Below, in pieces: positions 4,682 through 64,000 of a stretch of 64,000 nt of DNA. Made by a program: the position numbers and the translations under genes. Positions within the stretch are counted from its first letter, which is position 1; each line of letters begins with the position of its first letter. Under the pieces are notes generated by a model. The model saw only the letters and a list, made by a program, of their open reading frames with translations, did not search any database and had not been told where the DNA came from. The stretch is from Escherichia coli phage phiS, in sequence record PP449093.1; one strand, written 5' to 3'.

Positions 4682-6247
4682 TTAAAAATCCTCTATTTCA
4701 TCGGGAGTTTGTTTAAAGCGCGGATCGTTCGCTTCTTCTTCGATCTGTTTCTTCTCGGTGTCCATCTGGTCATCGGTATATTTCAGAATGTCACGCATCA
4801 CTGTCTGGTTAGAGAAATATTTACCAATGTAAGGTGTAATACGTTCGATTAGACCGATTCGACGTTCTAAAATTTCCGCGTCTTTAACTTCTGTATAGTA
4901 AGAGTCCCGATGGAAAACCACCTTGATATTATTTATTTCACGATCCCAATCGTCTTCCGTAATTACATTTTTGAGAATCAGATTATATTTCAGAGGATCG
5001 CGCAATACTTCCGAAAACTGTGATTGCAGAGTTCTAATGAATTTCGAAAATTCCAACTCATCGCGAGTAATTTCTGAACCGTCACCACCGATCACCATAT
5101 TAGCATCGGAGAGATTACTACGTGACAATGGCACACGCAACGCTTCATACAACTTACGGTTAAAGTAGCGAATATCATCGATATCACTCATACCGGATGC
5201 ACCGGGTAAAGTAGTAACGTCGGTGATTGCTTTACCATCTCGACGCTGTAACCAGTAGTCCTCTGTCATTGATAGATTTGCTTGCTGGTTTTTAAGTTTA
5301 CCAGTCGATGCATCATAAACAACGCGGTTTTTAAAAGACTGTGCCACTGAGTTCATGTGCTGTGCAGCCTTGCGGTTGTTCATGTTTCCGGTATCAATAA
5401 AGAACACTCGGCGTTCCGGTGCACGCGTGATACGATAAACGACCATTGCGTCTTCCAACAATTTAAGCTGGTTTGCTGGCTTAACCGCCCGATGCAAATA
5501 ACCAATGATATATTTATCATCGCAATCCATCAAGCCGCTGTGAGCGTATGTAATAGCACTACGCGGGATTTTAACGCGACTATTAGGAGAGAATACTTGA
5601 CCACCTGCGCAATAAGAGCTATTACCTACAGTGTAGATGAAATATTCTTTCGTTGCTTTATAAATTTTACCTTCCGGTGTGTCTTCTGTAATGATCTCTC
5701 GAACGTATTCAAGATTTCGTGGATCAAGCTGGCGTAATTCTACGATACCATCTTTTGGATTTTTGCCGATGATTTTATGGAAGAAAATACGAGAATCGAC
5801 ATACCAGCGACGGAACATATCCTGACCACGCTTATCAAACTGGATAGTGTTTAAAAGATCTTTAAATTCTTCATGAATGCGCTCTTTTACAGATTCACTA
5901 AAGCCAGTCGCCTCAAGATTTAATGAAACAACGTCATGACCGTCTTCGAATACAATAGCATCGTTAACGATATTTTGTACAGCGTTTTCGACTTCATGGT
6001 TATTCATCAAACCGCGATATGTGTTAACTAATTGCTTAGTTGTACTGATTTTCTGGTCGGTGCTGTAAAATTGCTGGGTAAGAGAGTTCCACGCGCTAGC
6101 AGGTGAATTATCATTAATTTCTACTTCCGTAGCACCATCATTGTTTTTAGGTGCGGCGATAGACTCTGCTTTATCTTTAATTTGTTCTTCGTATTTGTCG
6201 TTGTCAAAATCAGCCCAACGCGCAAGCATTTTTAATCTACTAAACAT
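4682..6247 (-). CDS. 20: portal vertex protein gp20
   Basis: 521-aa ORF; size and synteny with T4 gp20 (524 aa). Confidence 0.9.
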   Translation of the reverse strand: MFSRLKMLARWADFDNDKYEEQIKDKAESIAAPKNNDGATEVEINDNSPASAWNSLTQQFYSTDQKISTTKQLVNTYRGLMNNHEVENAVQNIVNDAIVFEDGHDVVSLNLEATGFSESVKERIHEEFKDLLNTIQFDKRGQDMFRRWYVDSRIFFHKIIGKNPKDGIVELRQLDPRNLEYVREIITEDTPEGKIYKATKEYFIYTVGNSSYCAGGQVFSPNSRVKIPRSAITYAHSGLMDCDDKYIIGYLHRAVKPANQLKLLEDAMVVYRITRAPERRVFFIDTGNMNNRKAAQHMNSVAQSFKNRVVYDASTGKLKNQQANLSMTEDYWLQRRDGKAITDVTTLPGASGMSDIDDIRYFNRKLYEALRVPLSRSNLSDANMVIGGDGSEITRDELEFSKFIRTLQSQFSEVLRDPLKYNLILKNVITEDDWDREINNIKVVFHRDSYYTEVKDAEILERRIGLIERITPYIGKYFSNQTVMRDILKYTDDQMDTEKKQIEEEANDPRFKQTPDEIEDF

Positions 6248-6260
6248 TATTCACCTCGAA

Positions 6261-6293
6261 TTGGGAGAAATTAAGCGGGGAACTTCTCCCCGC
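6261..6293 (-). other. GC-rich intergenic hairpin (GCGGGGA-N-TCCCCGC) between genes 20 and 19
   Basis: Perfect inverted repeat gcggggaacttctccccgc in the 58-nt gap between gp19 stop and gp20 start. Confidence 0.5.
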
Positions 6294-6305
6294 ATGATAA
6301 TATAT

Positions 6306-6800
6306 TTATTCTACCCAATCGATAGCAAAAGTAACTTCAAACGTTTCAACTTCGTTGTTTTGTTCCCAATCGAGGGTTACTTCACCAACGTTGGTCGGGA
6401 AAATACCGTACAATGTTTTTTCGCTAGTTGATTCGGTGTTACGGTTAAGTTGACGAACAATAGCTTGTTTCTTATATTGTGCAGGAGTTGCACCAGTGAT
6501 CGCCGAACCTGTGCCATGTGTCTGATCGCTCCATGCAACGATAGCATCACGGATCTTGTGTGCGTCATCGTTGAATACAGTGATGGTCCAGTCGTCGTAT
6601 ACACGGTCGCCAGCGATGTTAATTTTACGGTTTTGATAGCCTACAGCAATTTTTTCTACGGTTGCGGCCGGGACAGTCGCAGCCTTACACATCAGCTTAA
6701 AGTTTTGCCCCAGATACGGGATCTCAACTTCAAACAGGTTAGGACGAGCAAAATCGCCAGACTCGAAACCGCGTGTAATATCATTCAAATCGAGTGCCAT
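6306..6800 (-). CDS. 19: tail tube protein gp19
   Basis: 164-aa ORF; T4 gp19 size and position between 20 and 18. Confidence 0.85.
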   Translation of the reverse strand: MALDLNDITRGFESGDFARPNLFEVEIPYLGQNFKLMCKAATVPAATVEKIAVGYQNRKINIAGDRVYDDWTITVFNDDAHKIRDAIVAWSDQTHGTGSAITGATPAQYKKQAIVRQLNRNTESTSEKTLYGIFPTNVGEVTLDWEQNNEVETFEVTFAIDWVE

Positions 6801-9527: not shown

Positions 9528-13136
<3,609 letters not shown>

Positions 13137-28534: not shown

Positions 28535-30435
28535 TGAGCAATTGCCTCCAGACTAATAGTTGTGTACTGAGGACGGAGATCGTTTTCAAACACGATCAAA
28601 GAACCGTCTTTAGTAAAGATGTTATCAGCAATCGGTTTAGCTGTCAACTCAATATATGAACCAGTAAAGCGATCGCTATTGATATTCAGTTTACCCAGAT
28701 CCCATGAAATAAGGTCGTCATAATGCTTAACCTCTCCAACCTCAAAGTATAGGTCCGCACCGTCGATAACCTCTTTATCAAAATCAGTGCCGGAATAGTG
28801 CGGTAAAGCGATTGTAGAATCAACAGGGAAAGGTCCAACCAGCAATTTAGCTAAACCGGATTCTTTGTTCATTTCTGTACTTACATAATGGATCGGATAT
28901 TGCTTGTCGTCCTTTTCGAAGTTGAATGAACTAGACTTGATTCCGCTCTTATACTGGTTTAAAAACTTGATTCCAGCCATCGGTGCTTTATAGAAGTTGT
29001 CGATCTCTCGCACCATCTCGATTTCTGCACTAGAACCTATCACAGATACATCAGCTTTGTCAATACGCGCAAGCATTTTAGACTTACTAAAGGTCTGGTT
29101 AAAAATTTCCACTTCGTCGTTATAATATGCATCAATCTGATCAATAACCGCACCGCGCAGCCACTGTTCTGATTCAGACAAGTCATTTATTGAATATGAA
29201 ACTTTAATATTCTGTTTAATATACAGATAGTTAGGGTCAATGATGCTCGGTGTGATAGGGGCAAGATTATATTTTGCCAGATAATCCCGCATATCTTCTT
29301 TTTGAACAGTTGTCAAGCGCAAGCCAGATTTCGGCTTAACAGCAACAAAAGCATAACCTGGCTTTTCTCGGTCGGTGAAACATTGTACCGCCTGAACAAT
29401 ACTACCAAAACGGCTAGATACAAAAGCCTCATAGTCGGAAGCAGTAACACAACGACGCTGAGATTCACGCATTACCGGAGCAAGTTCACGAATACGTTCG
29501 ATTGATTCAGGATCACCACCACCATCTGCGCCGACATAATCACGATCATTTGTCGGATTCTCAATAATTTTAACAATAGAGATAGATGCAAGGGTATCCG
29601 CATATGTAAAATTAACTGAACCGTTTGCTTCCGCTCCCTTAGTGCTGATATATTCGATAACAATATTAGCACCAGTTGACGGCTTAAGGCCACCAATATA
29701 ATTTGCTTCCAGCGCCCCGCCAGCCGCAGATAAGGTTGATTCACCTTCACCAAAGAAGATTTCTGTATGTCCGTCTACGGTTTCGCGCATATAGAAAATA
29801 TTGCTTGCACCAGTTGCATTAACAATACTTTCGCGCGTCCAGTCTTTCCATTCAGCACCGTCTACCCACAACTTAACCTGAGCGCGGTCAATATCAGGAT
29901 CGCGGATCAGAATTTGTTTCTTCGGATCAAATAACATCTCTGTACGAACGATACGACCTTGTGCGACTTTAAGCATAGGCGTATATAAACCATTTGAACC
30001 TAAAACGCTCACAACGTCTTCTGTAGTAACAAATGGGTAAGAAGTCTGGCGATCCACACTTGCAATAAATTTAGTTCCTCGTGGGATTCGAATACTTGCC
30101 GGATTTCGCGGATGTGTTACGTGCAACATAATTGTAGTCGATGCACTAGTTTTACTTGCTGGCAAATATCCTAAATCTTGCGCGGCTTGAACAACTGAAC
30201 TACGCTTAATTGCAGTTCTGATAAAAGATTCATATAGCGCGGCGTTAGCGAATTGCTGAATATACAGAGTGTTATATGCGAGCAAGTCCATCAATACGTT
30301 AATACCAGCACCATTAAAATCAAAATCTTTAAATTCTTCCTGGTTTCTCATCCAGTCTGTTAATGCGCTTTTAATTTCATCGAATGTGGCAGCATTAAAA
30401 ATGTCAGGGATTTGTGTAATCTTTTGCTTTGTCAT
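28531..30435 (-). CDS. 6: baseplate wedge protein gp6
   Basis: 634-aa ORF; T4 gp6 size (660 aa) and synteny. Confidence 0.8.
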
Positions 30436-30725
30436 TTTATAAACACCTTCGGTGATGCCATAGCGACGGTATCGCCACAGCTAATACGGTCTGCCATTTG
30501 AATTGCTTTCTTTCCGGTAACAAATACTTTCGGGGTACTGGCGACCGTAGTTCCCCCGTGTGTATCATAAGGTTTTGTTGTTCTTGTATGTGGGATTATA
30601 GAATCACCTTCCACCAATACCGGAATACCTTCAACGAATACTTTAGATTGAGATGCATTAATCATTGTAGGCGGAAAATTTGAATGCCCTGTTGTTTTTG
30701 CTTTATCATAAGATAATCCAGCCAT
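30432..30725 (-). CDS. 5.4: baseplate spike tip protein gp5.4 (PAAR-repeat)
   Basis: 97-aa ORF; MAGLSYDK...[15 protein letters not shown]...[42 protein letters not shown] closely resembles recalled T4 gp5.4. Confidence 0.85.
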
Positions 30726-31291
30726 TAAACACCCCTATGTACATAATCTCTTAATTGCTCTGCCCAGATATCCCAATTACCGAAAACTGTTTGAGTATAA
30801 ACTTTCTCTATTGTGTGCTCGGTTACTACCGGAGGCGGATTAGTTTCACCAGCACCCTCTCGGCTATTGGAACCACCACTATTTCCTTCACCGGAACCAC
30901 CAGAAGACTCCGAAACAGATTGGATATAGGTTAGGGTTACTTTATAAGTATAAACCTCCTGTAGACGTGTAGGAGCGTTAAAATAATATAGATCTGCGGT
31001 AGTTGGATCTGGTAAATCATCAAAACTTCCGGCAGATTTTTTAATTCGATCTTTCGTTATATATTTAAGAGAATCCTCGCCAAGCGAAAAACTATCCCGA
31101 TACTCACCAGATATTTTAGTTTCTTCAACGGTAACGCCCTTATTAGGGCGATACTCGATGATCTTAAACTCTTTAATCGTGTATGTGGTATTTGCATCAG
31201 GTGGCGTTGCTTTATAAGAGAACACCACCTCAAAGATTTCTCGCTCGCTGATATCCTCCAATTTTGAACTCATCGGAAGAATTTCAACCAT
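30725..31291 (-). CDS. hypothetical protein in the position of T4 gene 5.1
   Basis: 188-aa ORF between gp5 and gp5.4; Gly/Ser-rich C-terminal stretch. Confidence 0.55.
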
Positions 31292-31299
31292 TAGTTACC

Positions 31300-33099
31300 T
31301 CACCCAAGATCAATACGGCTACCATCAATTTTAACTGTACCCGATGCAATATCTTTAACGTTTGCACCACAATTACGGGACCAGTCACCATTAACCTGAT
31401 CTGATTTAGTGCCATTGACGGTCATATTAAAATTACCTTCAACGGTTAAATCATAGTTACCTTTAATTGTCTCGGTAGTATTACCCTCGATCATTAATTC
31501 AGCATTACCCTTGACGTTAGCCGTCAAATTAGCGTCAAGCTGTGCGGTAACATCACCTACAACATGCATATTCGCAGTACCCTCAACGGTCTGATTAACA
31601 TTGCCACGAATAAATTCAGTGACGTTACCATCAACGGTTTGCATCACATTACCCATATAATAAACTTGCGCGTCACCTTCAACAACAACTTGCAGATTGC
31701 CTTTAACGTTGACTTTGCGACCTTGCTTAACGATCAAATAATCATCACCTTCAATCTTTTCTACCCTCGTTCCGTCCGGTCTGGTTTCTTCAAATGTACC
31801 AGAAGGATGTTTACGATGATATCGCTCGTGAGAAGGAGTATCATCAATCTCTATAATATGACCGCTCTCTGACTCGTATACATGGTTATAAGGATACCTT
31901 GCAGAATACGAACTCTTAGGCTCTTTAAACATGATTCGTGTGTCTTGTGGGGTAAACGGTGCTTCTGGGTCTTCTTCTGCTCTCTGTGTCTTATAGGCAG
32001 CAATACGGGCTTTTCTTAAACGCTCTCTAGGATCATCAGAAATTGATTCCTCTTTCTTTGTAGCAATTACGCCATATGATTCTAAGTTACCAGTAAGAAT
32101 AATTTTAGAAACACGGTTGGAGCGTCCTGGAGTTTGACTAGCCCATACAGATTGACGTAATCCATCATAGGCTTGTTTCCATTCTTCCGCCAGCATTGCA
32201 GCAAGACTATTCTTAAATTTACCCAATCCACCAACGCCCATTTGAAACGCCATATTTTCTAATGCCATACGACGAGAAGCATTACATTTATTATAGACAG
32301 GTGCAATACGTGGATGTTTGCGCATATCACGACGGGTCTTTTCTATATCGTCAGCAAATACTTTACTAACTTCTTCGGCGGTAAGTCTTCCGTTTGTAAC
32401 TTCACGCCCTACCAGCTTAGAAAGTTCATTATTGATAATACCCAGATCACTGGTTTTCTTATAAATGATCAAATGCCCGATCCCTATTGTCGGATATCCT
32501 TCTGAATCAAGATACCATTTCTCGCGATATCCCTCATCGCCCCGCAGCATTTTTTCTATTGTAAAATCAGGATTATCATCAACCGGAATTTGGTCTAATG
32601 GCTCGTCGTCTGGATTTACTGCAACTCCAGTGTTTTCATCTCGAATATAGACACTATCAGGTTTTGTTGTTTGTCCGGTTTCTGGGTTAATACCGCCACG
32701 GGCAAGAATATTAACATCATTACCAATATAACGAGGATATGCACCAGAAGGGTCACAAAAACCTTCTGTAGTGAGTGGTTTCTCTGTATATTGTCCGGCA
32801 ATAGTACCCAGAATAACGCAGTTTAAATAACGTTCATCTAAAGCCAAACCAAATACCATTGAACCTTCAACAATACCAGTAGGACTTTGACCTATACCGG
32901 AGATCGCCGCGCTTGTAATATCTTGTACTGGAGTAATCCATAATAGATCTTCGGTTGGGAGACCTTGAATGTCACCGTGTGCGGATAGCGAAGGATGTAT
33001 ACCATGAATCCTAACCTGAACACGCCCCAGCATTAATGGGTCTTCCCTGTTTTCTACAATTCCGGTAAACCATTTAACGGAGTTATTAAACATTAGCAT
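31300..33099 (-). CDS. 5: baseplate hub and tail lysozyme gp5
   Basis: 599-aa ORF; T4-lysozyme-like block DSEGYPTIGIGHLI; C-terminal VxGxxxxx beta-helix repeats. Confidence 0.9.
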   Translation of the reverse strand: MLMFNNSVKWFTGIVENREDPLMLGRVQVRIHGIHPSLSAHGDIQGLPTEDLLWITPVQDITSAAISGIGQSPTGIVEGSMVFGLALDERYLNCVILGTIAGQYTEKPLTTEGFCDPSGAYPRYIGNDVNILARGGINPETGQTTKPDSVYIRDENTGVAVNPDDEPLDQIPVDDNPDFTIEKMLRGDEGYREKWYLDSEGYPTIGIGHLIIYKKTSDLGIINNELSKLVGREVTNGRLTAEEVSKVFADDIEKTRRDMRKHPRIAPVYNKCNASRRMALENMAFQMGVGGLGKFKNSLAAMLAEEWKQAYDGLRQSVWASQTPGRSNRVSKIILTGNLESYGVIATKKEESISDDPRERLRKARIAAYKTQRAEEDPEAPFTPQDTRIMFKEPKSSYSARYPYNHVYESESGHIIEIDDTPSHERYHRKHPSGTFEETRPDGTRVEKIEGDDYLIVKQGRKVNVKGNLQVVVEGDAQVYYMGNVMQTVDGNVTEFIRGNVNQTVEGTANMHVVGDVTAQLDANLTANVKGNAELMIEGNTTETIKGNYDLTVEGNFNMTVNGTKSDQVNGDWSRNCGANVKDIASGTVKIDGSRIDLG

Positions 33100-57720: not shown

Positions 57721-58490
57721 TGAAGAAAGCATTAGGTTTAATTCCCTATACTGGCAATAAGGAAAAGTTATTGCCAGGTGTTAGTAAGTATTTCCCTAAG
57801 CACTACAACCGCTTTGTTGATGCCTTTTGTGGTGGTTTGAGCGTGTCTCTGTATGTTGAAGGTGATGTGCTGGCTAATGACTATGATCACCGTTTAATTG
57901 ACGCTTACAAGGCCATTGATGCGTGTCCTGAACCAGTTTCTACGATCAAGCGGATTATTGCCGAGAATGGTTTGTCTCGCGATGATAAAGATGCTTACAT
58001 GGCATTCCGTAAGAAGTATAACGAGAATCCAGATCCGCTATCTCTGTTTGTTCTGATCCAGCATAGTTTTAGCAACATTAACCGCCATAACCGGAAGGGC
58101 GAATTTAATGCTAACTTTGGTCGCCGGACTTTTAACGAAAATGCGGTAGAGCGTGTCCTGAATTTTAAAGAAGAAAACAAAGACGGTCGAATCAATTTTA
58201 CTTCTGGACGATATGACGAGATCGAGATCTTGCCGGATGATTTCGTTTTCCTTGATCCGCCATATTGGATCACGTCGGCAGAATATAATAAGTTCTGGAG
58301 TGAAGAAGAAGAGATTAAATTCTACATGTGGATAGAATCATTAATGTCTAGCGGTGCTAAGTTTGGATTAAGCAATGTTACTCACCACAAAGGGAAAGTT
58401 AACAACCATCTGCTCGATTTTATCGAACGTAATGATGTTTCTGTTGTTGAACTGGATAAAACATATTGTTTAGATCGTAGCGGGGGGTAA
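57720..58490 (+). CDS. dam: DNA adenine methyltransferase (Dam)
   Basis: Blocks YTGNKEKLLP, NRFVDAFCGGLSVSL and DPPY closely resemble recalled T4 Dam. Confidence 0.85.
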   Translation: MKKALGLIPYTGNKEKLLPGVSKYFPKHYNRFVDAFCGGLSVSLYVEGDVLANDYDHRLIDAYKAIDACPEPVSTIKRIIAENGLSRDDKDAYMAFRKKYNENPDPLSLFVLIQHSFSNINRHNRKGEFNANFGRRTFNENAVERVLNFKEENKDGRINFTSGRYDEIEILPDDFVFLDPPYWITSAEYNKFWSEEEEIKFYMWIESLMSSGAKFGLSNVTHHKGKVNNHLLDFIERNDVSVVELDKTYCLDRSGG

Positions 58491-58513
58491 AAAATCCGAT
58501 ACTAAGGAAGTTT

Positions 58514-59269
58514 ATGTCACCAATGTTAAAATATGAGGTTATACACAAGACTCCAGAAGATAAACGTTTATATGATTTATATCATTCACGGTTTTATTAT
58601 GATGATGGTTTTCTTAGGTGGAAGATTCACCCGCACCGAAAAGGTGTTATAAACGGATTAGCTGGAAGTGATACCCCCGATGGGTATCGTATTGTATGGA
58701 CTGGCGAGCGATACGAACGTATGCACCGTGTTATCTATCATATGTTTCATGGTCATTGTCCTAAGTATATAGATCATAAAGACCGAGATCGTTATAATAG
58801 CCGCATTGAAAACCTTAGAGAGACGACAAGCAAACAAAATAATATGAATATGAGCAAGACCAAATGCAAAACATATTCGAAGTATAAAGGTGTGTCGTTT
58901 AATAAGAATAAAGGTTATTGGACTGGTGCAATAATGTTGGATGGGAAGTCGATACATTTAGGATATTTTCCCTCTGAGATCGGTGCGGCGTATGCATATA
59001 ATCTTGCAGCGTTGAAACATTTTGGTGATAGGTCTTGTATAAACGAGATTGATGATATAGAATATGCAAAGTCTGAATATGACAAGAAGCTCCAAAAAGC
59101 AGCAAGTTCCCGTCATAGATACGTTTACAAAGTACCAAAACAAGGTAATTACGGTGCTAAAGTTCGCGGTGTGTATATAGGAAGATTTGACACAGAATAT
59201 GATGCGGCACGGGCAGTTAATGCCTATATTATTGAAAATGAACTTGATATAGAACTGAATGAGGTATAA
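58514..59269 (+). CDS. HNH homing endonuclease with two AP2-like domains
   Basis: HNH motif IDHKDRDRYNSRIENLRETTSKQN; AP2-like YKGVSF...GYWTGAIMLDGKSIHLGYF...AAYAYNLAALKHFG and a second AP2-like repeat. Confidence 0.75.
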   Translation: MSPMLKYEVIHKTPEDKRLYDLYHSRFYYDDGFLRWKIHPHRKGVINGLAGSDTPDGYRIVWTGERYERMHRVIYHMFHGHCPKYIDHKDRDRYNSRIENLRETTSKQNNMNMSKTKCKTYSKYKGVSFNKNKGYWTGAIMLDGKSIHLGYFPSEIGAAYAYNLAALKHFGDRSCINEIDDIEYAKSEYDKKLQKAASSRHRYVYKVPKQGNYGAKVRGVYIGRFDTEYDAARAVNAYIIENELDIELNEV

Positions 59270-59270
59270 T

Positions 59271-59552
59271 ATGGTAGAAATTTTTGGTTTTGAAGGTTAC
59301 AACTGTAAGTATTGCCAGAATGCAAAGCGCCTTTGTGAAGCGCGTAAGATCCCTTACATCTACATTCCGGTTAATGATGGTGTGGACGAAAACGGTCGTC
59401 CGGTAAAGATTGATTCTATCATTGCCGACATTCAGGATCGCGCAGGGGTAGAAGTTATTGCCACCATGCCGCAGATTTTCTATAATGGTGATTATATTGG
59501 TGGTTTTGATGAGTTCCGTTCCTTTGTAGTCAAAAACAAGATTAATGGTTAA
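59271..59552 (+). CDS. nrdC: glutaredoxin-like thioredoxin NrdC
   Basis: MVEIFGFEGYNCKYCQNAKRL...MPQIFYNGDYIGGFDEF resembles recalled T4 NrdC including the CxxC redox motif. Confidence 0.85.
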   Translation: MVEIFGFEGYNCKYCQNAKRLCEARKIPYIYIPVNDGVDENGRPVKIDSIIADIQDRAGVEVIATMPQIFYNGDYIGGFDEFRSFVVKNKING

Positions 59553-59576
59553 ATACCTTCTTTGGAGGGTGAATTT

Positions 59577-60050
59577 ATGTTACTGACTGCTAAGAGTGCT
59601 AAAGAGTACAAACAAGAACTATTCGAAAAACAGGGGGGCATTTGCCCCCTTTGTCAAATGCCACTTTTTGAGGATATGAGCAAAAACCATCTTGACCACG
59701 ACCACGATCTAGATGGGAAAGGGCAAGGCCGAGTAAGGGGATTGCTTCATTCGTGTTGCAACCGCCTAGAAGGATCGTTGACCGGAGACTTTAAACGGTT
59801 TGGTGTTGGTGCTTTAGGTGCTGACTTCGTTGTTTGGGCTACAAACTATGTTAATTACATCAAAGGAGACTACACCAACAATCATTTACATCCTCAATAT
59901 GCTGTTGATAAAGTAAAACGATTTTCACGCTTGACACGCGCGGAGATGGTTGCTATTATGGACGCAGAAGGTTTCGATTACTGCGACGCTGATACACGAG
60001 AAGAGATCACGAAGAAGTATAAGAAACAATTTATACAAAGATTAAGATAG
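59577..60050 (+). CDS. 49: endonuclease VII (Holliday junction resolvase, gene 49)
   Basis: MLLTAKSAKEYKQELFEKQGGICPLCQ...NHLDHDHDLDG...VRGLLHSCCN resembles recalled T4 endo VII. Confidence 0.85.
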   Translation: MLLTAKSAKEYKQELFEKQGGICPLCQMPLFEDMSKNHLDHDHDLDGKGQGRVRGLLHSCCNRLEGSLTGDFKRFGVGALGADFVVWATNYVNYIKGDYTNNHLHPQYAVDKVKRFSRLTRAEMVAIMDAEGFDYCDADTREEITKKYKKQFIQRLR

Positions 60051-60053
60051 TAG

Positions 60054-60082
60054 TTGACAATAAGAAATGGGAGTAGTAAAAT
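60054..60082 (+). promoter_or_regulatory. early promoter cassette copy 11 (TTGACA-17-TAAAAT) with GGGAGTA/TACTCCC palindrome
   Basis: TTGACAATAAGAAATGGGAGTAGTAAAATACTCCC then SD AGGAGAATCAACA ATG. Confidence 0.6.
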
Positions 60083-60113
60083 ACTCCCATCTAATCAAGA
60101 AGGAGAATCAACA

Positions 60114-60386
60114 ATGCGTAAGATGTTTAAATCCGGTGTGGCCTATGTTTTTAAATCTGAGCAAGCACATAAAGACTTCTTAGATGATGAATACGAAGGG
60201 GTGAAAGATACCTACGAAGTCATCAAGAATGGGTTTACTGTTCTTAAAGTGTCACCTGTTGGTTATGTAAGTGAAATCTCAGTTGATGGGAAAACATACA
60301 CCGCTAAAGACTTTGATCCGCGTTGGGAATTTATGCTGCTTCCGTGTGAGCGCATTCTGTTCCGTGCTGTTCAATTAGTGAAATGA
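60114..60386 (+). CDS. hypothetical protein, one-module member of paralog family C
   Basis: MRKMFKSGVAYVFKSEQAHKDF...NGFTVLKV...VDGKTYTAKDF...W; module shared with the next two ORFs. Confidence 0.55.
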   Translation: MRKMFKSGVAYVFKSEQAHKDFLDDEYEGVKDTYEVIKNGFTVLKVSPVGYVSEISVDGKTYTAKDFDPRWEFMLLPCERILFRAVQLVK

Positions 60387-60400
60387 TAGAGGATTATATT

Positions 60401-60961
60401 ATGGTACAGAAAACGTATAAATTGTATCCGGCTAAGTCTTCAAATGATGCTGTTTTTGAACGAGGTCGTTATTACACTTTCCGTAATGCTGAGTCCGCAG
60501 AGGAATTTGTTAAACGCTATCCACAACATAACAAGTTCCTGTATGGTGTGCTTCACAAGGGCTTTAAAGTTCTGACTGTTAATGTTATGGGTAAAGTGTA
60601 TTTGGTAGAAACTCATGATTATGAGGGCGCGTCAATCATGATTGATGCCAGCGAGCGCAAATACTTTAAGCGTATCACTAAAAAGCAGTTTGAAGAAATG
60701 AAGCCAGTTAAGAAAGAAGAATCGCTGGAAGATCTGATTAACTTGTTTGCGAAGTCTTCTTTGGTATCATTGACGCTGGAAGATTTTAGCGTTGATAATC
60801 AGCTATACTTTAAAAATGCCGATGACCTGAAAGATTTTTTGATTGAGAATAAACCTAAGCTAGAAACCTATATCAAAGGTGAGATTAAGCGCATGGAACA
60901 TCAAGCAAAATATAGCGCAGATAAAGTAGCTGAACTGAAAGAGATCCAAAAGTCACTTTAA
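60401..60961 (+). CDS. hypothetical protein, family C (one N-terminal module plus coiled-coil tail)
   Basis: Preceded by GAGGATTATATTATG; N-terminal module and C-terminal tail LKDFLIENKPKLETYIKGEIKRMEHQ paralogous to 61025-62203. Confidence 0.55.
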   Translation: MVQKTYKLYPAKSSNDAVFERGRYYTFRNAESAEEFVKRYPQHNKFLYGVLHKGFKVLTVNVMGKVYLVETHDYEGASIMIDASERKYFKRITKKQFEEMKPVKKEESLEDLINLFAKSSLVSLTLEDFSVDNQLYFKNADDLKDFLIENKPKLETYIKGEIKRMEHQAKYSADKVAELKEIQKSL

Positions 60962-60964
60962 CGC

Positions 60965-60993
60965 TTGACATGATGAAACGGGAGTAGTAAGAT
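60965..60993 (+). promoter_or_regulatory. early promoter cassette copy 12 (TTGACA-17-TAAGAT) with GGGAGTA/TACTCCC palindrome
   Basis: Near-identical to copy 11. Confidence 0.6.
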
Positions 60994-61024
60994 ACTCCCA
61001 TCTAAACAACGAGAGGATTATATT

Positions 61025-62203
61025 ATGGCTCAATTCTTTGAAGGGCATTACTATGCATTCCGTGAAGGCGGTAAAGATGAGTTTCTAGACTTTTCTCGCT
61101 ATTCAATTACTCTGACCGATGATTCGCGCCGTGGTCATATTCGGGTTGCTGAAATCGTAGAAAACGGTTTTAAAGTATTAGAAAAAGATGACCACGGTCA
61201 TGTTGTTACTATTGAAGCTGGAGATGTAGTTTATTCCTCTGAGGATATTGTGGACTATTGGGCTACTATGTTTATGCACAATGAGCGTAAATTCTTTAAA
61301 CGTATCTCAAAAGAGGCATACGAAGCAATGAACAAGAAAGAAGATGTAATGCCGACTTACTTTGAAAAAGGTAAGTGCTATTCGTTTACCCCAGAAGGTT
61401 TGCAAGAATTTAAGCGATTCTGGGGAGAGCATGATCCAGATCACAAAGAAGCCATGAAACTTGTTGATTTTGTTGAATATGGCTTTTTAGTTGAAGAAGA
61501 ATTTCATGGGTCGGCTACCATGATCACCGCGAAAGGTGAAACCGTTAAGGCGGATCGTTTTTGTGATCAATGGGCGTGTGTGATTGACGGTGGCGAATTT
61601 GAATACTTCGCTGAAATCACGAAACAACAATTTCATTCTATGCAAGCGGCTGGTCAGAGATTTAAAGTAGGTGAACGCTACAAGCCAAATCAGCATAATT
61701 TGCCATATTGGTTTACCGCTGAAACTGTATCAAGTCATGTTGTTGAAATTGTTCAAAAGCTGGGACAAGGATTTAAGGTAACTAAAGTAGATGATTATGG
61801 AAGTGTTGACGCGGTTGAAATTGATGGTGTAGAATATACACCGAAATCTTTCGGGCTTTGCTGGTATCACCTGATCAGCAATGATGAACGTTATTACTTT
61901 GTTGAACTGCCATCTGAACCGGAAGAAGCACTAGAAGATCATGATCATCTGTCTGAACTGGTTAAACTGTTTGGTGATCTGCCGGATGGTGTAGGCGTGG
62001 CGGTAATGGGTGAAGGTGCTGTTATCCGAAACCTGAAAGACCTTAAAAAGTTCTTGATTGACATGCTGCCTAAACTTGATGATAATCTCGATAAAGATAT
62101 TCAGAATCGCAAAGAAATTGTTAAAGATACTGAAAAAGAGATCGAAGAGATTCGAGCAATTCGCCAGAAGGTGAAAGCAGTAAAGAAAAAAGTTAGTGCT
62201 TGA
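61025..62203 (+). CDS. hypothetical protein, family C (three tandem internal modules plus coiled-coil tail)
   Basis: 392-aa ORF with three approximately 100-aa repeats (Y-x-F ... GF-x-VL ... ERKFFKRI-like ends) and C-terminal LKDLKKFLIDMLPKLDDNLDKD... coiled coil. Confidence 0.6.
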   Translation: MAQFFEGHYYAFREGGKDEFLDFSRYSITLTDDSRRGHIRVAEIVENGFKVLEKDDHGHVVTIEAGDVVYSSEDIVDYWATMFMHNERKFFKRISKEAYEAMNKKEDVMPTYFEKGKCYSFTPEGLQEFKRFWGEHDPDHKEAMKLVDFVEYGFLVEEEFHGSATMITAKGETVKADRFCDQWACVIDGGEFEYFAEITKQQFHSMQAAGQRFKVGERYKPNQHNLPYWFTAETVSSHVVEIVQKLGQGFKVTKVDDYGSVDAVEIDGVEYTPKSFGLCWYHLISNDERYYFVELPSEPEEALEDHDHLSELVKLFGDLPDGVGVAVMGEGAVIRNLKDLKKFLIDMLPKLDDNLDKDIQNRKEIVKDTEKEIEEIRAIRQKVKAVKKKVSA

Positions 62204-62227
62204 CATGCGAAGGGAGTATGCTATAAT
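62200..62227 (+). promoter_or_regulatory. early promoter cassette copy 13 (TTGACA-16-TATAAT) with GGGAGTAT/ATACTCCC palindrome
   Basis: CTTGACATGCGAAGGGAGTATGCTATAATACTCCC then GAGAGGATTATATTATG. Confidence 0.6.
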
Positions 62228-62257
62228 ACTCCCACTTAACAACGAGAGGATTATATT

Positions 62258-62752
62258 ATGTGGGTACAAGATGTTTGGTATACTGTAACTAAAGAAAACC
62301 TTGACGCATTCAGCGACCAATCTTGCGCTAATAGCTCAATTGCTGGTATACTTACTGATGTGTTTGGTGGTGTAGATAAAATTCGTTTTAAAGTTGTTGT
62401 TAGTTCGCTGGGTCAGGTGAAAGATCTTTACACCGAAGATAAAGACCTTGATCTTGAACTTCGTCTTCGTATTGATAATGCAAGTCTAGGTTATTGGTTT
62501 GAAGATAACGAATATGAATACTTCACACCAGCAATTAAAGTTTTTGCGACTAAACTGGAAGCTGTACTGAATCTACGACCAATTAATGTTGACGGCTACA
62601 TTATCAAAAATATTCAGGATTGGGAGTTGTATCTAGATCAGGTTATCCGAAATAGTAAGCAGGAAGCCGCTAATAAGAAGCGACAAGAGATTAAACAGCT
62701 TAAAGCTGAACTGGAATCGGCGGAAAAAGAATTAGCAGAACTGGTAAAATAA
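62258..62752 (+). CDS. hypothetical protein with C-terminal coiled coil (164 aa)
   Basis: C-terminus QEAANKKRQEIKQLKAELESAEKELAELVK; similar tail architecture to the two preceding genes. Confidence 0.55.
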   Translation: MWVQDVWYTVTKENLDAFSDQSCANSSIAGILTDVFGGVDKIRFKVVVSSLGQVKDLYTEDKDLDLELRLRIDNASLGYWFEDNEYEYFTPAIKVFATKLEAVLNLRPINVDGYIIKNIQDWELYLDQVIRNSKQEAANKKRQEIKQLKAELESAEKELAELVK

Positions 62753-62761
62753 CTATCAACG

Positions 62762-62786
62762 AGCGGGAGAAATCCCGCTTTTTCAT
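62762..62786 (+). terminator. hairpin/terminator-like element upstream of nrdD
   Basis: Hairpin AGCGGGAGAAATCCCGCT followed by TTTTTCA. Confidence 0.45.
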
Positions 62787-62796
62787 AGGTGATACA

Positions 62797-63666
62797 ATGG
62801 AAAAACTAATCAAAGACATTACAGAGATCGCAACGGGTAAAGAAAACGAAGTAAGCAAAGAGAACGCGAACAAAGACGCGCGAACATTCCCGACACGTCG
62901 AGATCTGATTGCTGGTGCTGTGTCTAAACAGATTGCTAAAACCGTGTTACCTGAGCACATCTATAAAGCGCATGTAGACGGTGATATTCATTATCATGAT
63001 ATGGATTATGCACCCGCTATGCCGTTTACTAACTGCTGTCTTGTTAATCTCAAAGACATGTTAGAGAATGGTTTTAAATTGGGTAGCGCACAAATCGAAA
63101 GTCCGAAATCAATCGGCGTTGCTTGTGCTGTAACCGCTCAAATTATCGCACAGGTGGCAAGTCATCAATATGGCGGGACCACAATTGCAAACATCGACCA
63201 GGTGTTAGCACCGTATGTTAAGAAAACATATCATAAACACCTTGCTGATGCCGAAACCTACGGAATCAAAGCTGATACTCTCTATGCACAAGAGAAAACA
63301 GAAAAAGAAACGTTAGACGGATATCAGGCGTTGGAATATGAGATCAACACTTTGTTCTCCACCAACGGTCAAACGCCTTTTGTGACTTTAACCTTTGGTA
63401 TGGGTACTAGCTGGGAAGAAAAACTGATTCAGAAAGCGATCCTGAATGTTCGAACTAAAGGTTTAGGTAAAGACGGTATAACTCCGGTGTTTCCTAAGCT
63501 GGTGATGTTCTTAGAAGAAGGATTAAACCTTAAACCGGAAGATCCGAACTACGACATTAAGCAACTTGCATTGGAATGTTCTAGTAAGCGTCTTTACCCT
63601 GATTATATCTCTGCGAAGAATAACCGTAGTATCACTGGATCTAGTGTTCCGGTTAGCCCGATGGGT
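62797..63666 (+). CDS. nrdD: anaerobic ribonucleoside-triphosphate reductase NrdD, exon 1 (reading frame hits a stop at 63673-63675 inside the intron)
   Basis: Blocks FPTRRDLIAGAVSKQIAK, PFTNCCLVNLKDMLENGFKLG, VASHQYGGTT and GSSVPVSPMG match recalled T4 NrdD; ORF breaks after PMG where a group-I-intron-like sequence begins. Confidence 0.8.
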
Positions 63667-64000
63667 AAACTTTAAACAGCTCATCTAAAATCTGCCTAAA
63701 CGGGGGAACTCTCTAGAAGACAATCCCGTGCTAAACATAGCGATCATATTCTCTTTACGCCAATGTGTATAAGAGGATATATTATGGAACTTAGAAAAAT
63801 TCGTGATACCGAATATATGGTATCGAAAGATGGACGGGTGTTTTCTCCTAAAGGTAAACAGTTGAGCACCTGGATAGAAAACAATACCGGATATACATTA
63901 GTAAGGGTAAGGAGAGACAAGAAACCTTTATGTTTGCGTGTTCATGTTATTGTGGCTGAATGCTGGATTCCAAATCCTAACGGCTATCGATACGTGAAAC
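63667..64000 (+). mobile_element. group I intron in nrdD (5' part; continues beyond window) carrying an HNH endonuclease ORF
   Basis: Sequence GCCTAAACGGGGGAACTCTCTAGAAGACAATCCCGTGCTAAA resembles the conserved 5' core I recall from T4 td/nrdD group I introns; the exact 5' splice site is not determined. Confidence 0.6.
63783..64000 (+). CDS. intron-encoded HNH homing endonuclease (I-TevIII-like), 5' part
   Basis: ORF after AAGAGGATATATTATG; NUMOD4-like N-terminus MELRKIRDTEYMVSKDGRVFSPKG; truncated by the window end. Confidence 0.6.

What the first reader, a model, noticed from the sequence alone, without database searches (positions are those of the whole stretch)
60114..62752. Four-gene insertion between gene 49 and nrdD built from a repeated ~100-aa module and shared coiled-coil tails
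T4 has gene 49 next to nrdD as I recall. Here about 2.7 kb intervenes, holding four genes, three of them with their own promoter cassette. A module of about 100 aa (Y-x-F..., GF-K/T-VL, ...V-DG..YT..., W, ERKFF-like end) occurs once in 60114-60386, once in 60401-60961 and three times in tandem in 61025-62203. The last three genes share Lys/Glu-rich coiled-coil C-termini. This is a locally expanding gene family of unknown function, typical of host-takeover or anti-defence loci.
Basis: seen in the sequence. Interest (0 to 1): 0.6.

Follow-up and report, generated by a model that had tools for sequence, protein, structure and literature searches.

The report
Array of GoF/Frd.2-type early phage genes
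Between the endonuclease VII gene and nrdD, this RB49-like coliphage carries four early genes built from six copies of the small beta-barrel domain found in phage T4 GoF and Frd.2. It is a real, old expansion of a known family of unknown function, arranged in known mobile promoter cassettes.

Summary
Four genes lie at 60114-62752 between gene 49 and nrdD, which overlap in T4. Shuffle tests support a ~95-aa module once in A, once in B and three times in C (z 3.7-14.5). A broader profile finds a sixth, diverged copy in D (26.4 bits against at most 12.0 in 2000 shuffles). B, C and D share an ~85-aa tail: helix, beta-hairpin, then a long heptad helix.

The family is already named. The module matches T4 GoF and Frd.2, the "LSm-like" early proteins of Kim et al. 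2025. RB49 annotators called gene C frd.2.

The three promoter cassettes are PeSL elements (Arbiol et al. 2010). Phage KFS-EC lacks A+B, and its junction is a hybrid PeSL.

The duplications are old: 24-37% amino-acid identity and no DNA-level repeats. The cluster is present in 58 of 58 Krischvirus records, and a sister lineage has three paralogues in the same slot. RB49 carries five more family genes outside the window.

Function is still inferred. The proteins are probably non-enzymatic, multivalent binders acting on RNA or RNA-handling host proteins. It is a new architectural variant of a known family, of moderate interest.

The parts
59577..60050 (+). Gene 49 (endonuclease VII), upstream flank
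   Evidence: Pfam Endonuclease_7 and Endonuc-dimeris, phrog_423. 99% amino-acid identity to RB49 gp49.
60054..60113 (+). PeSL-A: -35 TTGACA (60054), hairpin GGGAGTAGTAAAATACTCCC (60069-60088) that contains the -10 TAAAAT, then Shine-Dalgarno AAGGAG
   Evidence: Promoter scan 11 of 12. Sequence. Hairpin -13.8 kcal/mol, z -4.1. Direct-repeat families D1 and D3. Matches the PeSL description in PMC2839356.
60114..60386 (+). Gene A, 90 aa: a single module with no tail
   Evidence: phrog_16115 at 4e-60 and phrog_622 at 1.9e-7. Family HMM 4e-28. dN/dS 0.31-0.36.
60401..60961 (+). Gene B, 186 aa: module (residues 16-99, 60446-60697) plus tail (residues 105-186, 60713-60958). Probably co-transcribed with A, from which it is separated by 14 nt.
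   Evidence: phrog_8944 at 1.7e-100. Module HMM 5.7e-21. Tail HMM 6e-24. Its ribosome-binding region GAGGATTATATTATG is shared with C and D (family D2).
60965..61024 (+). PeSL-C: TTGACA, hairpin GGGAGTAGTAAGATACTCCC (60980-60999) and Shine-Dalgarno sequence
61025..62203 (+). Gene C, 392 aa (the RB49 'frd.2' orthologue): modules C1 (residues 1-101, 61025-61327), C2 (110-205, 61352-61639) and C3 (210-302, 61652-61930), then tail (304-392, 61934-62200)
   Evidence: Three HMM domains at 1e-22 to 1e-25. phrog_8944 at 1e-208 and phrog_622 at 2e-21 in 3 stretches. The AF2 model shows the same strand and helix order three times, then helix, hairpin and a 55-residue helix.
62200..62257 (+). PeSL-D: TTGACA, 16-nt spacer, TATAAT with TG extension (12 of 12), hairpin GGGAGTATGCTATAATACTCCC (62212-62233) and Shine-Dalgarno sequence. 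The -35 hexamer overlaps the stop codon of gene C.
62258..62752 (+). Gene D, 164 aa: diverged sixth module (residues 1-98, 62258-62551) plus tail (residues 93-164, 62534-62749)
   Evidence: Family HMM built without D gives E 1.2e-6; 26.4 bits against at most 12.0 in 2000 shuffles. phrog_3710 at 2e-4, a family that GoF also matches at 8e-12. Tail HMM 1e-17. AF2 pLDDT 83.5.
62763..62785 (+). Intrinsic terminator (GCGGGAGAAATCCCGC followed by TTTTT) that closes the cluster before nrdD
   Evidence: Sequence. Fold -16.7 kcal/mol, z -4.6. Annotated as a terminator in phage G5211.
62797..63666 (+). nrdD first exon, downstream flank
   Evidence: Pfam NRDD at 2e-76. Homology to RB49 nrdD ends at 63666.

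Best explanation
What it is (shown). The locus is a PeSL-organised array of four early genes of the phage GoF/Frd.2 family, in a Krischvirus (RB49-like) genome. It sits in a slot that is empty in T4.

The building block is a ~95-aa module predicted to have five beta-strands with helical inserts. Its only family-wide conserved residues are hydrophobic core positions: Tyr10, Phe20, Phe49, Gly and Phe91. A has one module. B has one module plus a tail. C has three modules in tandem plus a tail. D has one diverged module plus a tail. The tail is a helix, a beta-hairpin and a long heptad-patterned helix.

How it is expressed (inferred from sequence). Three units, A+B, C and D, are each driven by a strong sigma-70-type promoter. 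A hairpin encloses each -10 element and also attenuates read-through from upstream. A terminator closes the array.

How it arose (inferred). Promoter-plus-gene cassettes duplicated long ago, the module multiplied within gene C, and cassettes are now lost or gained by PeSL-PeSL recombination.

How it most likely works (inferred). The proteins are abundant, non-essential and non-enzymatic binding proteins made in the first minutes of infection. Tandem modules and tail-mediated oligomerisation would make them multivalent. The most likely targets are mRNA, or host proteins that handle mRNA, so that transcript stability is altered as with T4 GoF(D25Y).

Supporting detail. Modules C1 and B1 natively carry residue types that the T4 goF gain-of-function mutations create: an aromatic at the D25 position and Lys at the G84 position.
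For: Identity and anatomy
- Repeat statistics.
- PHROG matches shared with T4 GoF and Frd.2.
- An HMM trained without the T4 proteins hits GoF at 1.2e-11 and Frd.2 at 6e-9.
- The RB49 and RefSeq annotations agree.
- AF2 secondary structure is b1-a-a-b2-b3-b4-a-b5-a, repeated three times in C.
- Foldseek of the C model finds only uncharacterised proteins, those with a named source coming mostly from T4-type phages. These include the RB49p049 homologue (6e-10) and Dc2.

Expression units
-, and the PeSL experiments reported in PMC2839356.

Cassette turnover
- KFS-EC has 49-C-D-nrdD. Its single junction PeSL resembles PeSL-A at the 5' end and PeSL-C at the 3' end.

Real genes
- dN/dS is 0.09-0.36.

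Age
- A sister lineage (gp49 57% and NrdD 81% identical) has three module-plus-tail genes in the same slot.
- There is no nucleotide-level repeat among the modules.

Mechanism
- GoF(D25Y) stabilises a reporter mRNA post-transcriptionally. GoF is abundant, made early, dispensable and dimeric (PMC12152347).
- Only core residues are invariant.
- Heptad pattern in the tail helices: hydrophobic residues fill 0.57-0.69 of a/d positions against 0.36-0.38 overall.
- Mapping of the goF suppressor positions onto the family alignment.
Against: - Wild-type GoF and MotB.1 had little effect on the RNA reporter in PMC12152347, so RNA stabilisation may not be the native activity of the family.
- Most modules here are acidic. 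Net charge is -6 for C1, -9 for C2, -4 for C3 and -9.5 for D1; only B1 is basic at +5.8. This argues against generic RNA binding.
- No window protein reaches Pfam FRD2 (PF03197) at E 0.05 or better.
- The C model has only moderate confidence (pLDDT 71, pTM 0.36).
- The D25 column lies next to an indel-rich loop, so that mapping is uncertain.
- Oligomerisation through the tail is not tested.
Confidence: 0.6

Rival explanations
1. The modules are protein-protein interaction domains (SH3/FeoA-like barrels), not RNA binders. Each paralogue would bind or inhibit a different host protein, either a takeover target or an immune sensor. Diversification of the array would then reflect an arms race, that is, an anti-defence or host-range function.
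For: - The modules are acidic.
- Only the hydrophobic core is conserved and the surfaces diverge.
- Wild-type GoF has no RNA effect, and the closest structural neighbours reported for GoF are FeoA-type SH3 domains (PMC12152347).
- The genes evolve faster than their flanks. A+B alleles range from 80 to 99% DNA identity, and dS for B is 0.40-0.45 against 0.06 in the flanks.
- A+B are missing from an O157:H7-infecting isolate.
Against: - No partner is known for any family member. The GoF pull-down recovered essentially only GoF.
- No paper found links the family to a defence system.
- The same four genes are kept in nearly all isolates, which is not the pattern of a rapidly turning-over anti-defence island.
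Confidence: 0.3
2. The genes are accessory factors of anaerobic ribonucleotide reduction. The case rests on position: this cluster lies between 49 and nrdD, and in RB49 a second cluster lies between nrdG and nrdH.
For: Both Krischvirus clusters flank nrd genes. The sister lineage keeps paralogues next to nrdD.
Against: - T4 family members sit elsewhere, next to gene 39 and next to frd and 32.
- Many T4-type phages have 49 and nrdD adjacent with no such genes.
- The cluster has its own promoters and a terminator before nrdD.
- KFS-EC lacks A+B and keeps nrdD.
- PMC2839356 names nrdD among the genes associated with PeSLs and describes it as unusually plastic.
Confidence: 0.04
3. The repeat is a chance or compositional resemblance, and the ORFs are not a true paralogous family.
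For: Pairwise identity is only 24-37%. D is not detectable from the five window copies alone.
Against: Shuffle z-scores reach 14.5. Independent PHROG profiles, and an HMM trained on other lineages, recover every copy. Predicted secondary structure is congruent across copies. The genes are under purifying selection.
Confidence: 0.01

Closest known systems
T4 GoF (comC-alpha) and Frd.2, with MotB.1 more distantly: the 'phage LSm-like fold' family of Kim et al. 2025 (PMC12152347); phrog_622; Pfam PF03197 for Frd.2
   Same: The ~90-aa N-terminal domain is homologous. It shares conserved Tyr, Phe, F-K-V, Gly and E-R-x-[FY]-F positions and a predicted five-strand topology. Both are early genes behind sigma-70-type promoters, dispensable, and acidic.
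   Different: - The T4 proteins have one domain and a short C-terminal region. Here there are one to three domains per protein and a conserved ~85-aa tail with a long helix. The tail HMM does not detect the T4 C-terminal regions.
- T4 has three dispersed genes. Krischvirus has at least 9 genes and 12 modules in two clusters plus dc2.
- Krischvirus is not placed in the subfamily Tevenvirinae (taxonomy line).
- No window protein matches Pfam FRD2.
RB49 ORF057-060 (RB49p057-p060; p058 named 'frd.2'; RefSeq 'goF mRNA metabolism modulator', phrog_8944)
   Same: These are the same four genes, at 82-97% amino-acid identity and in the same order.
   Different: The public annotation gives a name to two of the four genes only. 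It does not record the internal triplication, the module in p057 (gene D) or p060 (gene A), or the shared tail.
PeSL (promoter-early stem-loop) cassettes of phi1 and RB49 (Arbiol et al. 2010, PMC2839356; Comeau et al. 2014, PMC4122927)
   Same: Consensus -35 and -10 boxes, a stem-loop overlapping the -10, and a position between an upstream stop codon and a downstream Shine-Dalgarno sequence and start codon. They are also sites of homologous recombination that removes or adds the enclosed ORFs.
   Different: Nothing essential. This hairpin subtype (GGGAGTA...TACTCCC) occurs only at these three sites in the 64-kb window, and three more times in the last 44 kb of the RB49 genome. I did not find the KFS-EC deletion of A+B described as an example.
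Hfq / Sm-LSm proteins
   Same: A small five-stranded bent beta-sheet, as claimed for GoF in PMC12152347. A possible link to RNA stability.
   Different: No sequence or profile similarity. The modules have helical inserts between b1 and b2 and between b4 and b5. There is no evidence for ring hexamers; AF3 gave no confident multimers for GoF. The surfaces are acidic.
FeoA / DtxR-type SH3-like domain
   Same: Reported as the nearest structural neighbours of the GoF N-terminal domain. A weak local profile match covers the F-x-V-x-x-V-x-x-x-G-x-x-x-x-I-E hairpin.
   Different: hhalign probability is only 4.8%. The metal-binding histidines are absent. Fold-level similarity could not be tested here.

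Membership tests
GoF/Frd.2 phage family (Kim et al. 2025; phrog_622) | Significant profile similarity of the ~90-aa domain to T4 GoF and Frd.2 | tested here: met
   - C matches phrog_622 at 2e-21 in 3 stretches, A at 1.9e-7 and B at 1.3e-5. T4 GoF matches it at 4.6e-38 and Frd.2 at 4.1e-46.
- A 16-module HMM built without the T4 proteins hits GoF at 1.2e-11 and Frd.2 at 6e-9.
- D is linked through the same HMM at 1.2e-6 and through phrog_3710.
GoF/Frd.2 phage family | Match to the curated Pfam model FRD2 (PF03197) | tested here: not met
   Only T4 Frd.2 matches, at 1.2e-23. None of the window modules reaches E 0.05. The Pfam model is narrower than the family as defined by PHROGs and by Kim et al.
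GoF/Frd.2 phage family | N-terminal domain folds as a bent five-stranded antiparallel beta-sheet (SH3/LSm-like) | tested here: inconclusive
GoF/Frd.2 phage family | Early gene that is dispensable in the laboratory | tested here: met
   Consensus sigma-70 promoters lie before A, C and D; this is inferred from sequence only. The natural isolate KFS-EC lacks A+B. Dispensability of C and D was not tested.
GoF/Frd.2 phage family | Effect on mRNA stability (shown only for the mutant GoF D25Y) | not testable with these tools
   Only an inference is available: C1 and B1 carry Lys at the G84 position, and C1 carries Phe at the D25 position.
PeSL cassette (Arbiol et al. 2010) | Sigma-70 consensus -35 and -10 with a stable stem-loop inside or overlapping the promoter, placed between a stop codon and the next Shine-Dalgarno sequence and start codon | tested here: met
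   Promoters score 10-12 of 12. Hairpins fold at -11.9 to -13.8 kcal/mol with z -3.8 to -4.4 and enclose the -10. Sequences are and the repeat families.
PeSL cassette | Acts as a recombination site for loss or gain of the enclosed ORFs | tested here: met
   The KFS-EC junction is a single hybrid PeSL, and exactly the 911 bp between PeSL-A and PeSL-C are absent. This is comparative evidence; mini-circles were not tested.
Hfq / Sm-LSm | Sm1/Sm2 sequence motifs and ring oligomer | tested here: not met
Oligomeric state cannot be tested here.

The most novel reading that the evidence does not exclude
The Krischvirus paralogues could be the naturally active form of what T4 GoF shows only after a gain-of-function mutation. 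Modules such as C1 and B1 already carry the aromatic and Lys residues that D25Y and G84R create. In this reading they bind and protect phage mRNAs. The shared coiled-coil tail would assemble B, C, D and the nrdG-nrdH cluster proteins into homo- or hetero-oligomers carrying many barrels. That would be a phage-encoded, modular, multivalent RNA-chaperone system unrelated in sequence to Hfq.
Probability: 0.12. Interest if true: 0.6.

Novelty: new variant of a known kind. Interest (0 to 1): 0.35.

Why it matters

This locus shows that outside the Tevenvirinae the same domain has been multiplied: at least 12 copies per RB49-type genome, up to three in one protein. It has also been fused to a probable oligomerisation tail. 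That points to a binding module whose avidity and specificity are what matter.

The locus offers concrete test proteins. C1 and B1 carry the 'suppressor' residue states, and KFS-EC is a natural A+B deletion. It also gives a clean natural example of PeSL-mediated cassette loss.

Tried and rejected
- Single-sequence and small-profile searches of the large protein collections returned almost only Krischvirus orthologues. The exhaustive HMM search found 11 representatives at E 1e-3 or better. One of them, the 1079-aa repetitive protein P0041, looks spurious: only profile positions 42-68 match.
- The 5-module HMM found no further copy in the 64-kb window.
- The tail HMM does not detect the C-terminal regions of T4 GoF or Frd.2. 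The resemblance I saw by eye (hairpin plus N-x-x-D/E...L helix) is therefore unsupported.
- No solved structure is related by sequence. There are no NCBIfam matches.
I used gp49 as an anchor instead.
- The neighbour-joining tree of modules is star-like, so the order of duplications cannot be resolved. The L5_196~C1 and L5_189~D pairings are weak.
- Rfam found nothing in 58000-64000.
- Literature searches for an anti-defence link found nothing. No supplementary files of PMC12152347 were held, so I could not check whether its tree includes Krischvirus proteins.
Full report
**Anatomy**

The window comes from a Krischvirus, an RB49-like T4-type coliphage. The stretch 59500-63000 matches 58 phage records at 94-97% identity, all of them from this genus.

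The order on the + strand is dam, an HNH endonuclease gene, nrdC, gene 49 (ends 60050), four ORFs, then nrdD (starts 62797).

| Gene | Coordinates | Length |
|---|---|---|
| A | 60114-60386 | 90 aa |
| B | 60401-60961 | 186 aa |
| C | 61025-62203 | 392 aa |
| D | 62258-62752 | 164 aa |

These are the gene models annotated in RB49 as RB49p060 to p057. The TTG at 60054 that opens a longer ORF for A is in fact the -35 hexamer of a promoter.

**Is the repeat real?**

- All ten pairs among A, B1, C1, C2 and C3 exceed chance, with z from 3.7 to 14.5. Nine pairs were reached by 0 of 300 shuffles and one by 1 of 300.
- The tails of B and C (z 8.5), C and D (z 3.7), and B and D (z 2.5) are also related.
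- MAFFT alignment of the five modules gives ten invariant positions: F4, G7, Y10, F20, G48, F49, V51, G58, E87 and F91 in C1 numbering.

The N-terminal half of D is not significantly similar to any single module, nor to an HMM of the five window copies (p about 0.03). I then built a 16-sequence HMM from the window modules and from homologues in other lineages, leaving out D and the T4 proteins. It scores D residues 1-90 at 26.4 bits, against a maximum of 12.0 in 2000 shuffles and E 1.2e-6.

D orthologues keep the same invariant Tyr, Phe, F-K-V, Gly and E..F positions. A 26-nt stretch encoding D-N-E-Y-E-Y-F in D is 81% identical to the one encoding G-G-E-F-E-Y-F in C2. The cluster therefore holds six modules, not five.

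**The tail**

A 7-sequence HMM of the C-terminal parts finds B, C and D at E 1e-17 to 1e-30.

AF2 models show a short helix, a beta-hairpin and then a single helix of 45-55 residues: 337-391 in C and 119-163 in D. In the best heptad register, 0.57-0.69 of a/d positions are hydrophobic, against 0.36-0.38 overall. The 'coiled-coil tail' is thus a conserved domain that ends in a probable coiled coil.

**What family is it?**

PHROG profiles give the answer.
- B and C belong to phrog_8944 ('goF mRNA metabolism modulator').
- A, B and C all match phrog_622 (C at 2e-21 in three stretches), and D matches phrog_3710.
- T4 GoF and T4 Frd.2 are the core of phrog_622 (4.6e-38 and 4.1e-46). GoF also matches phrog_3710 at 8e-12.
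- My HMM, trained without T4 sequences, hits GoF at 1.2e-11, Frd.2 at 6e-9 and MotB.1 only weakly at 0.03. hhalign of the 17-module profile against MotB.1 gives 2e-4 over the N-terminal 42 columns.

RB49's original annotators already called gene C 'frd.2'.

The family was described in 2025. [quoted passage not shown] GoF is abundant (about 20,000 copies per cell), made early, dispensable and runs partly as a dimer. Only the mutant GoF(D25Y), not the wild type, stabilises a reporter mRNA (PMC12152347).

Pfam's FRD2 model (PF03197) recognises only T4 Frd.2 and none of the window modules. By that narrow curated definition the window proteins are outside the family. By profile homology they are inside.

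**Structure**

The AF2 model of C (pLDDT 71, pTM 0.36) repeats the element order b1, helix, helix, b2, b3, b4, helix, b5, helix three times, and then adds the tail. The model of D (pLDDT 83.5) has the same plan with a helix in place of b4.

Foldseek of C against predicted viral structures finds 21 proteins at E 1e-3 or better, all uncharacterised. Those that carry a source name come mostly from T4-type phages infecting Escherichia, Cronobacter, Proteus, Pectobacterium, Klebsiella and Citrobacter. Weaker matches reach Aeromonas, Salmonella and Edwardsiella phages. Several targets are 225-311 aa long, and Dc2 is among the matches.

**Promoter cassettes**

Three ~60-nt intergenic cassettes start at 60054, 60965 and 62200. 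Each holds TTGACA, a -10 box scoring 10-12 of 12, a hairpin GGGAGTA...TACTCCC that encloses the -10, and a shared Shine-Dalgarno and start region.

These are PeSL elements. Arbiol et al. 2010 showed for other PeSLs in phi1 and RB49 that they act as strong promoters and attenuators, and that they recombine to excise or insert the ORFs between them (PMC2839356).

This hairpin subtype occurs only three times in the window. A strong terminator follows D at 62763-62785. The transcription units are therefore A+B, C and D.

**Turnover**

Of 58 records, 56 carry all four genes. The other two are the GenBank and RefSeq entries of phage KFS-EC, which has 49-C-D-nrdD.

The KFS-EC junction is a single PeSL. 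Its 5' half resembles PeSL-A and its 3' half matches PeSL-C, and exactly the 911 bp between them are missing. This is the signature of PeSL-PeSL recombination, and it shows that A+B are dispensable for at least one isolate.

A+B also show wider allelic divergence (80-99.4% DNA identity; dS for B 0.40-0.45) than the flanks (dS about 0.06). That pattern is consistent with cassette exchange among phages.

All four genes are under purifying selection. dN/dS is 0.09-0.36, against 0.02-0.11 for gene 49 and nrdD.

**Age and spread**

The modules share no nucleotide-level similarity and only 24-37% amino-acid identity.

A metagenomic sister lineage (gp49 57% and NrdD 81% identical) has three genes in the same slot, of 196, 204 and 189 aa. 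Each is one module plus the same tail.

Among 38 gp49 loci from IMG/VR:
- nrdD follows gene 49 directly in about 12;
- only the two Krischvirus loci have the four-gene cluster;
- two other genomes have two family genes right after gene 49.

RB49 lacks goF and motB.1 at their T4 positions. It has four more family genes between nrdG and nrdH: RB49p048-p051, with p049 carrying two modules plus the tail. It also has dc2. These lie outside the window.

The family is thus an old, large expansion in this genus, with at least 12 modules in 9 genes. It is not an actively expanding one.

**Mechanism**

Shown:
- homology to GoF and Frd.2;
- modular architecture;
- promoter, terminator and PeSL organisation at the sequence level;
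- purifying selection;
- natural loss of A+B.

Inferred:
- Only core hydrophobic residues are invariant, so the module is a scaffold for binding and not an enzyme.
- Tandem modules and a heptad tail imply multivalency.
- The only functional datum for the family concerns mRNA stability.

Mapping the two goF suppressor substitutions onto the family alignment gives a testable lead.
- At the G84 position, which is the x of the conserved E-R-x-[FY]-F motif, 6 of 17 modules have Lys or Arg, including C1 and B1. This holds in both alignments.
- At the D25 position, 8 of 17 have an aromatic residue, including C1 and C2. This column lies next to an indel-rich loop, so the mapping is less certain.

Wild-type T4 GoF is therefore the atypical member, and the gain-of-function mutants recreate states that C1 carries natively.

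Against direct RNA binding, five of the six modules are neutral to strongly acidic, and wild-type GoF is inactive in the reporter assay. I put about 0.9 on the identity and architecture, about 0.3-0.35 on an RNA-related mode of action, and about 0.3 on the protein-binding rival (takeover or anti-defence).

**Novelty**

The genes, the family and the cassettes are all known individually, and two of the four genes already carry the GoF label in RefSeq.

The following I did not find described:
- the triplicated module in C;
- the cryptic modules in A and D;
- the shared tail domain;
- the size of the expansion around the anaerobic nrd genes;
- the KFS-EC hybrid-PeSL deletion;
- the correspondence between the goF suppressor residues and the native residues of these paralogues.

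It is a new architectural variant of a known family. It is solid and useful for people working on T4 early genes, but not a surprise.

Noticed in passing
window 58514-59269: An HNH plus AP2-domain homing-endonuclease gene (Pfam HNH_3 at 2e-13, AP2 at 1.8e-8) lies between dam and nrdC. RB49, G5211 and KFS-EC have dam directly followed by nrdC. The inserted segment is about 58527-59256. The adjacent 3' end of dam is only about 70% identical to RB49, while nrdC is 98.6% identical.
   Followed up: partly
window 63667-64000: nrdD is interrupted after ...SPMG. The ORF stops at 63675 and homology to RB49 nrdD ends at 63666. The inserted DNA at 63678-63735 is 83% identical to the 5' part of the T4 nrdD group I intron, yet it sits about 330 nt downstream of the T4 intron site. 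An ORF starting at 63784 has a weak NUMOD4 match (E 0.019) and runs off the window. It is probably a group I intron carrying a homing-endonuclease gene. Rfam gave no match, possibly because the element is cut by the window end.
   Followed up: partly
L009 (RB49 NC_005066) 30297-32608 and 11993-12628, outside the window: RB49 has a second cluster of four family genes between nrdG and nrdH (RB49p048-p051; p049 has two modules plus the same tail). The gene named dc2 also contains the module (E 1.4e-6). RB49 has no goF or motB.1 at the T4 positions between gene 39 and dexA.
   Followed up: partly
L005, L006, L007 (metagenome contigs), genes between 49 and nrdD: A sister T4-type lineage has three module-plus-tail paralogues in the 49-nrdD slot. 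Two of the three contigs carry an extra 43-aa ORF with a T7 gp1.1-like Pfam hit (PF08200) between the second and third paralogue.
   Followed up: partly
L036 and L049 (IMG/VR genomes of ~167 kb), 5386-6527: Two other T4-type genomes have two family genes immediately downstream of gene 49, but no nrdD within 5 kb. In L017 and L019 about 800 bp with no family hit separate gene 49 from nrdD.
   Followed up: no
window 60100-60961 compared with 56 phage records: The A+B cassette of this phage is 99.4% identical to that of phage 011D4 but only 80-90% identical to 27 other Krischvirus records. The whole locus is 88-97% identical across the genus. This mosaic pattern suggests cassette exchange.
   Followed up: partly
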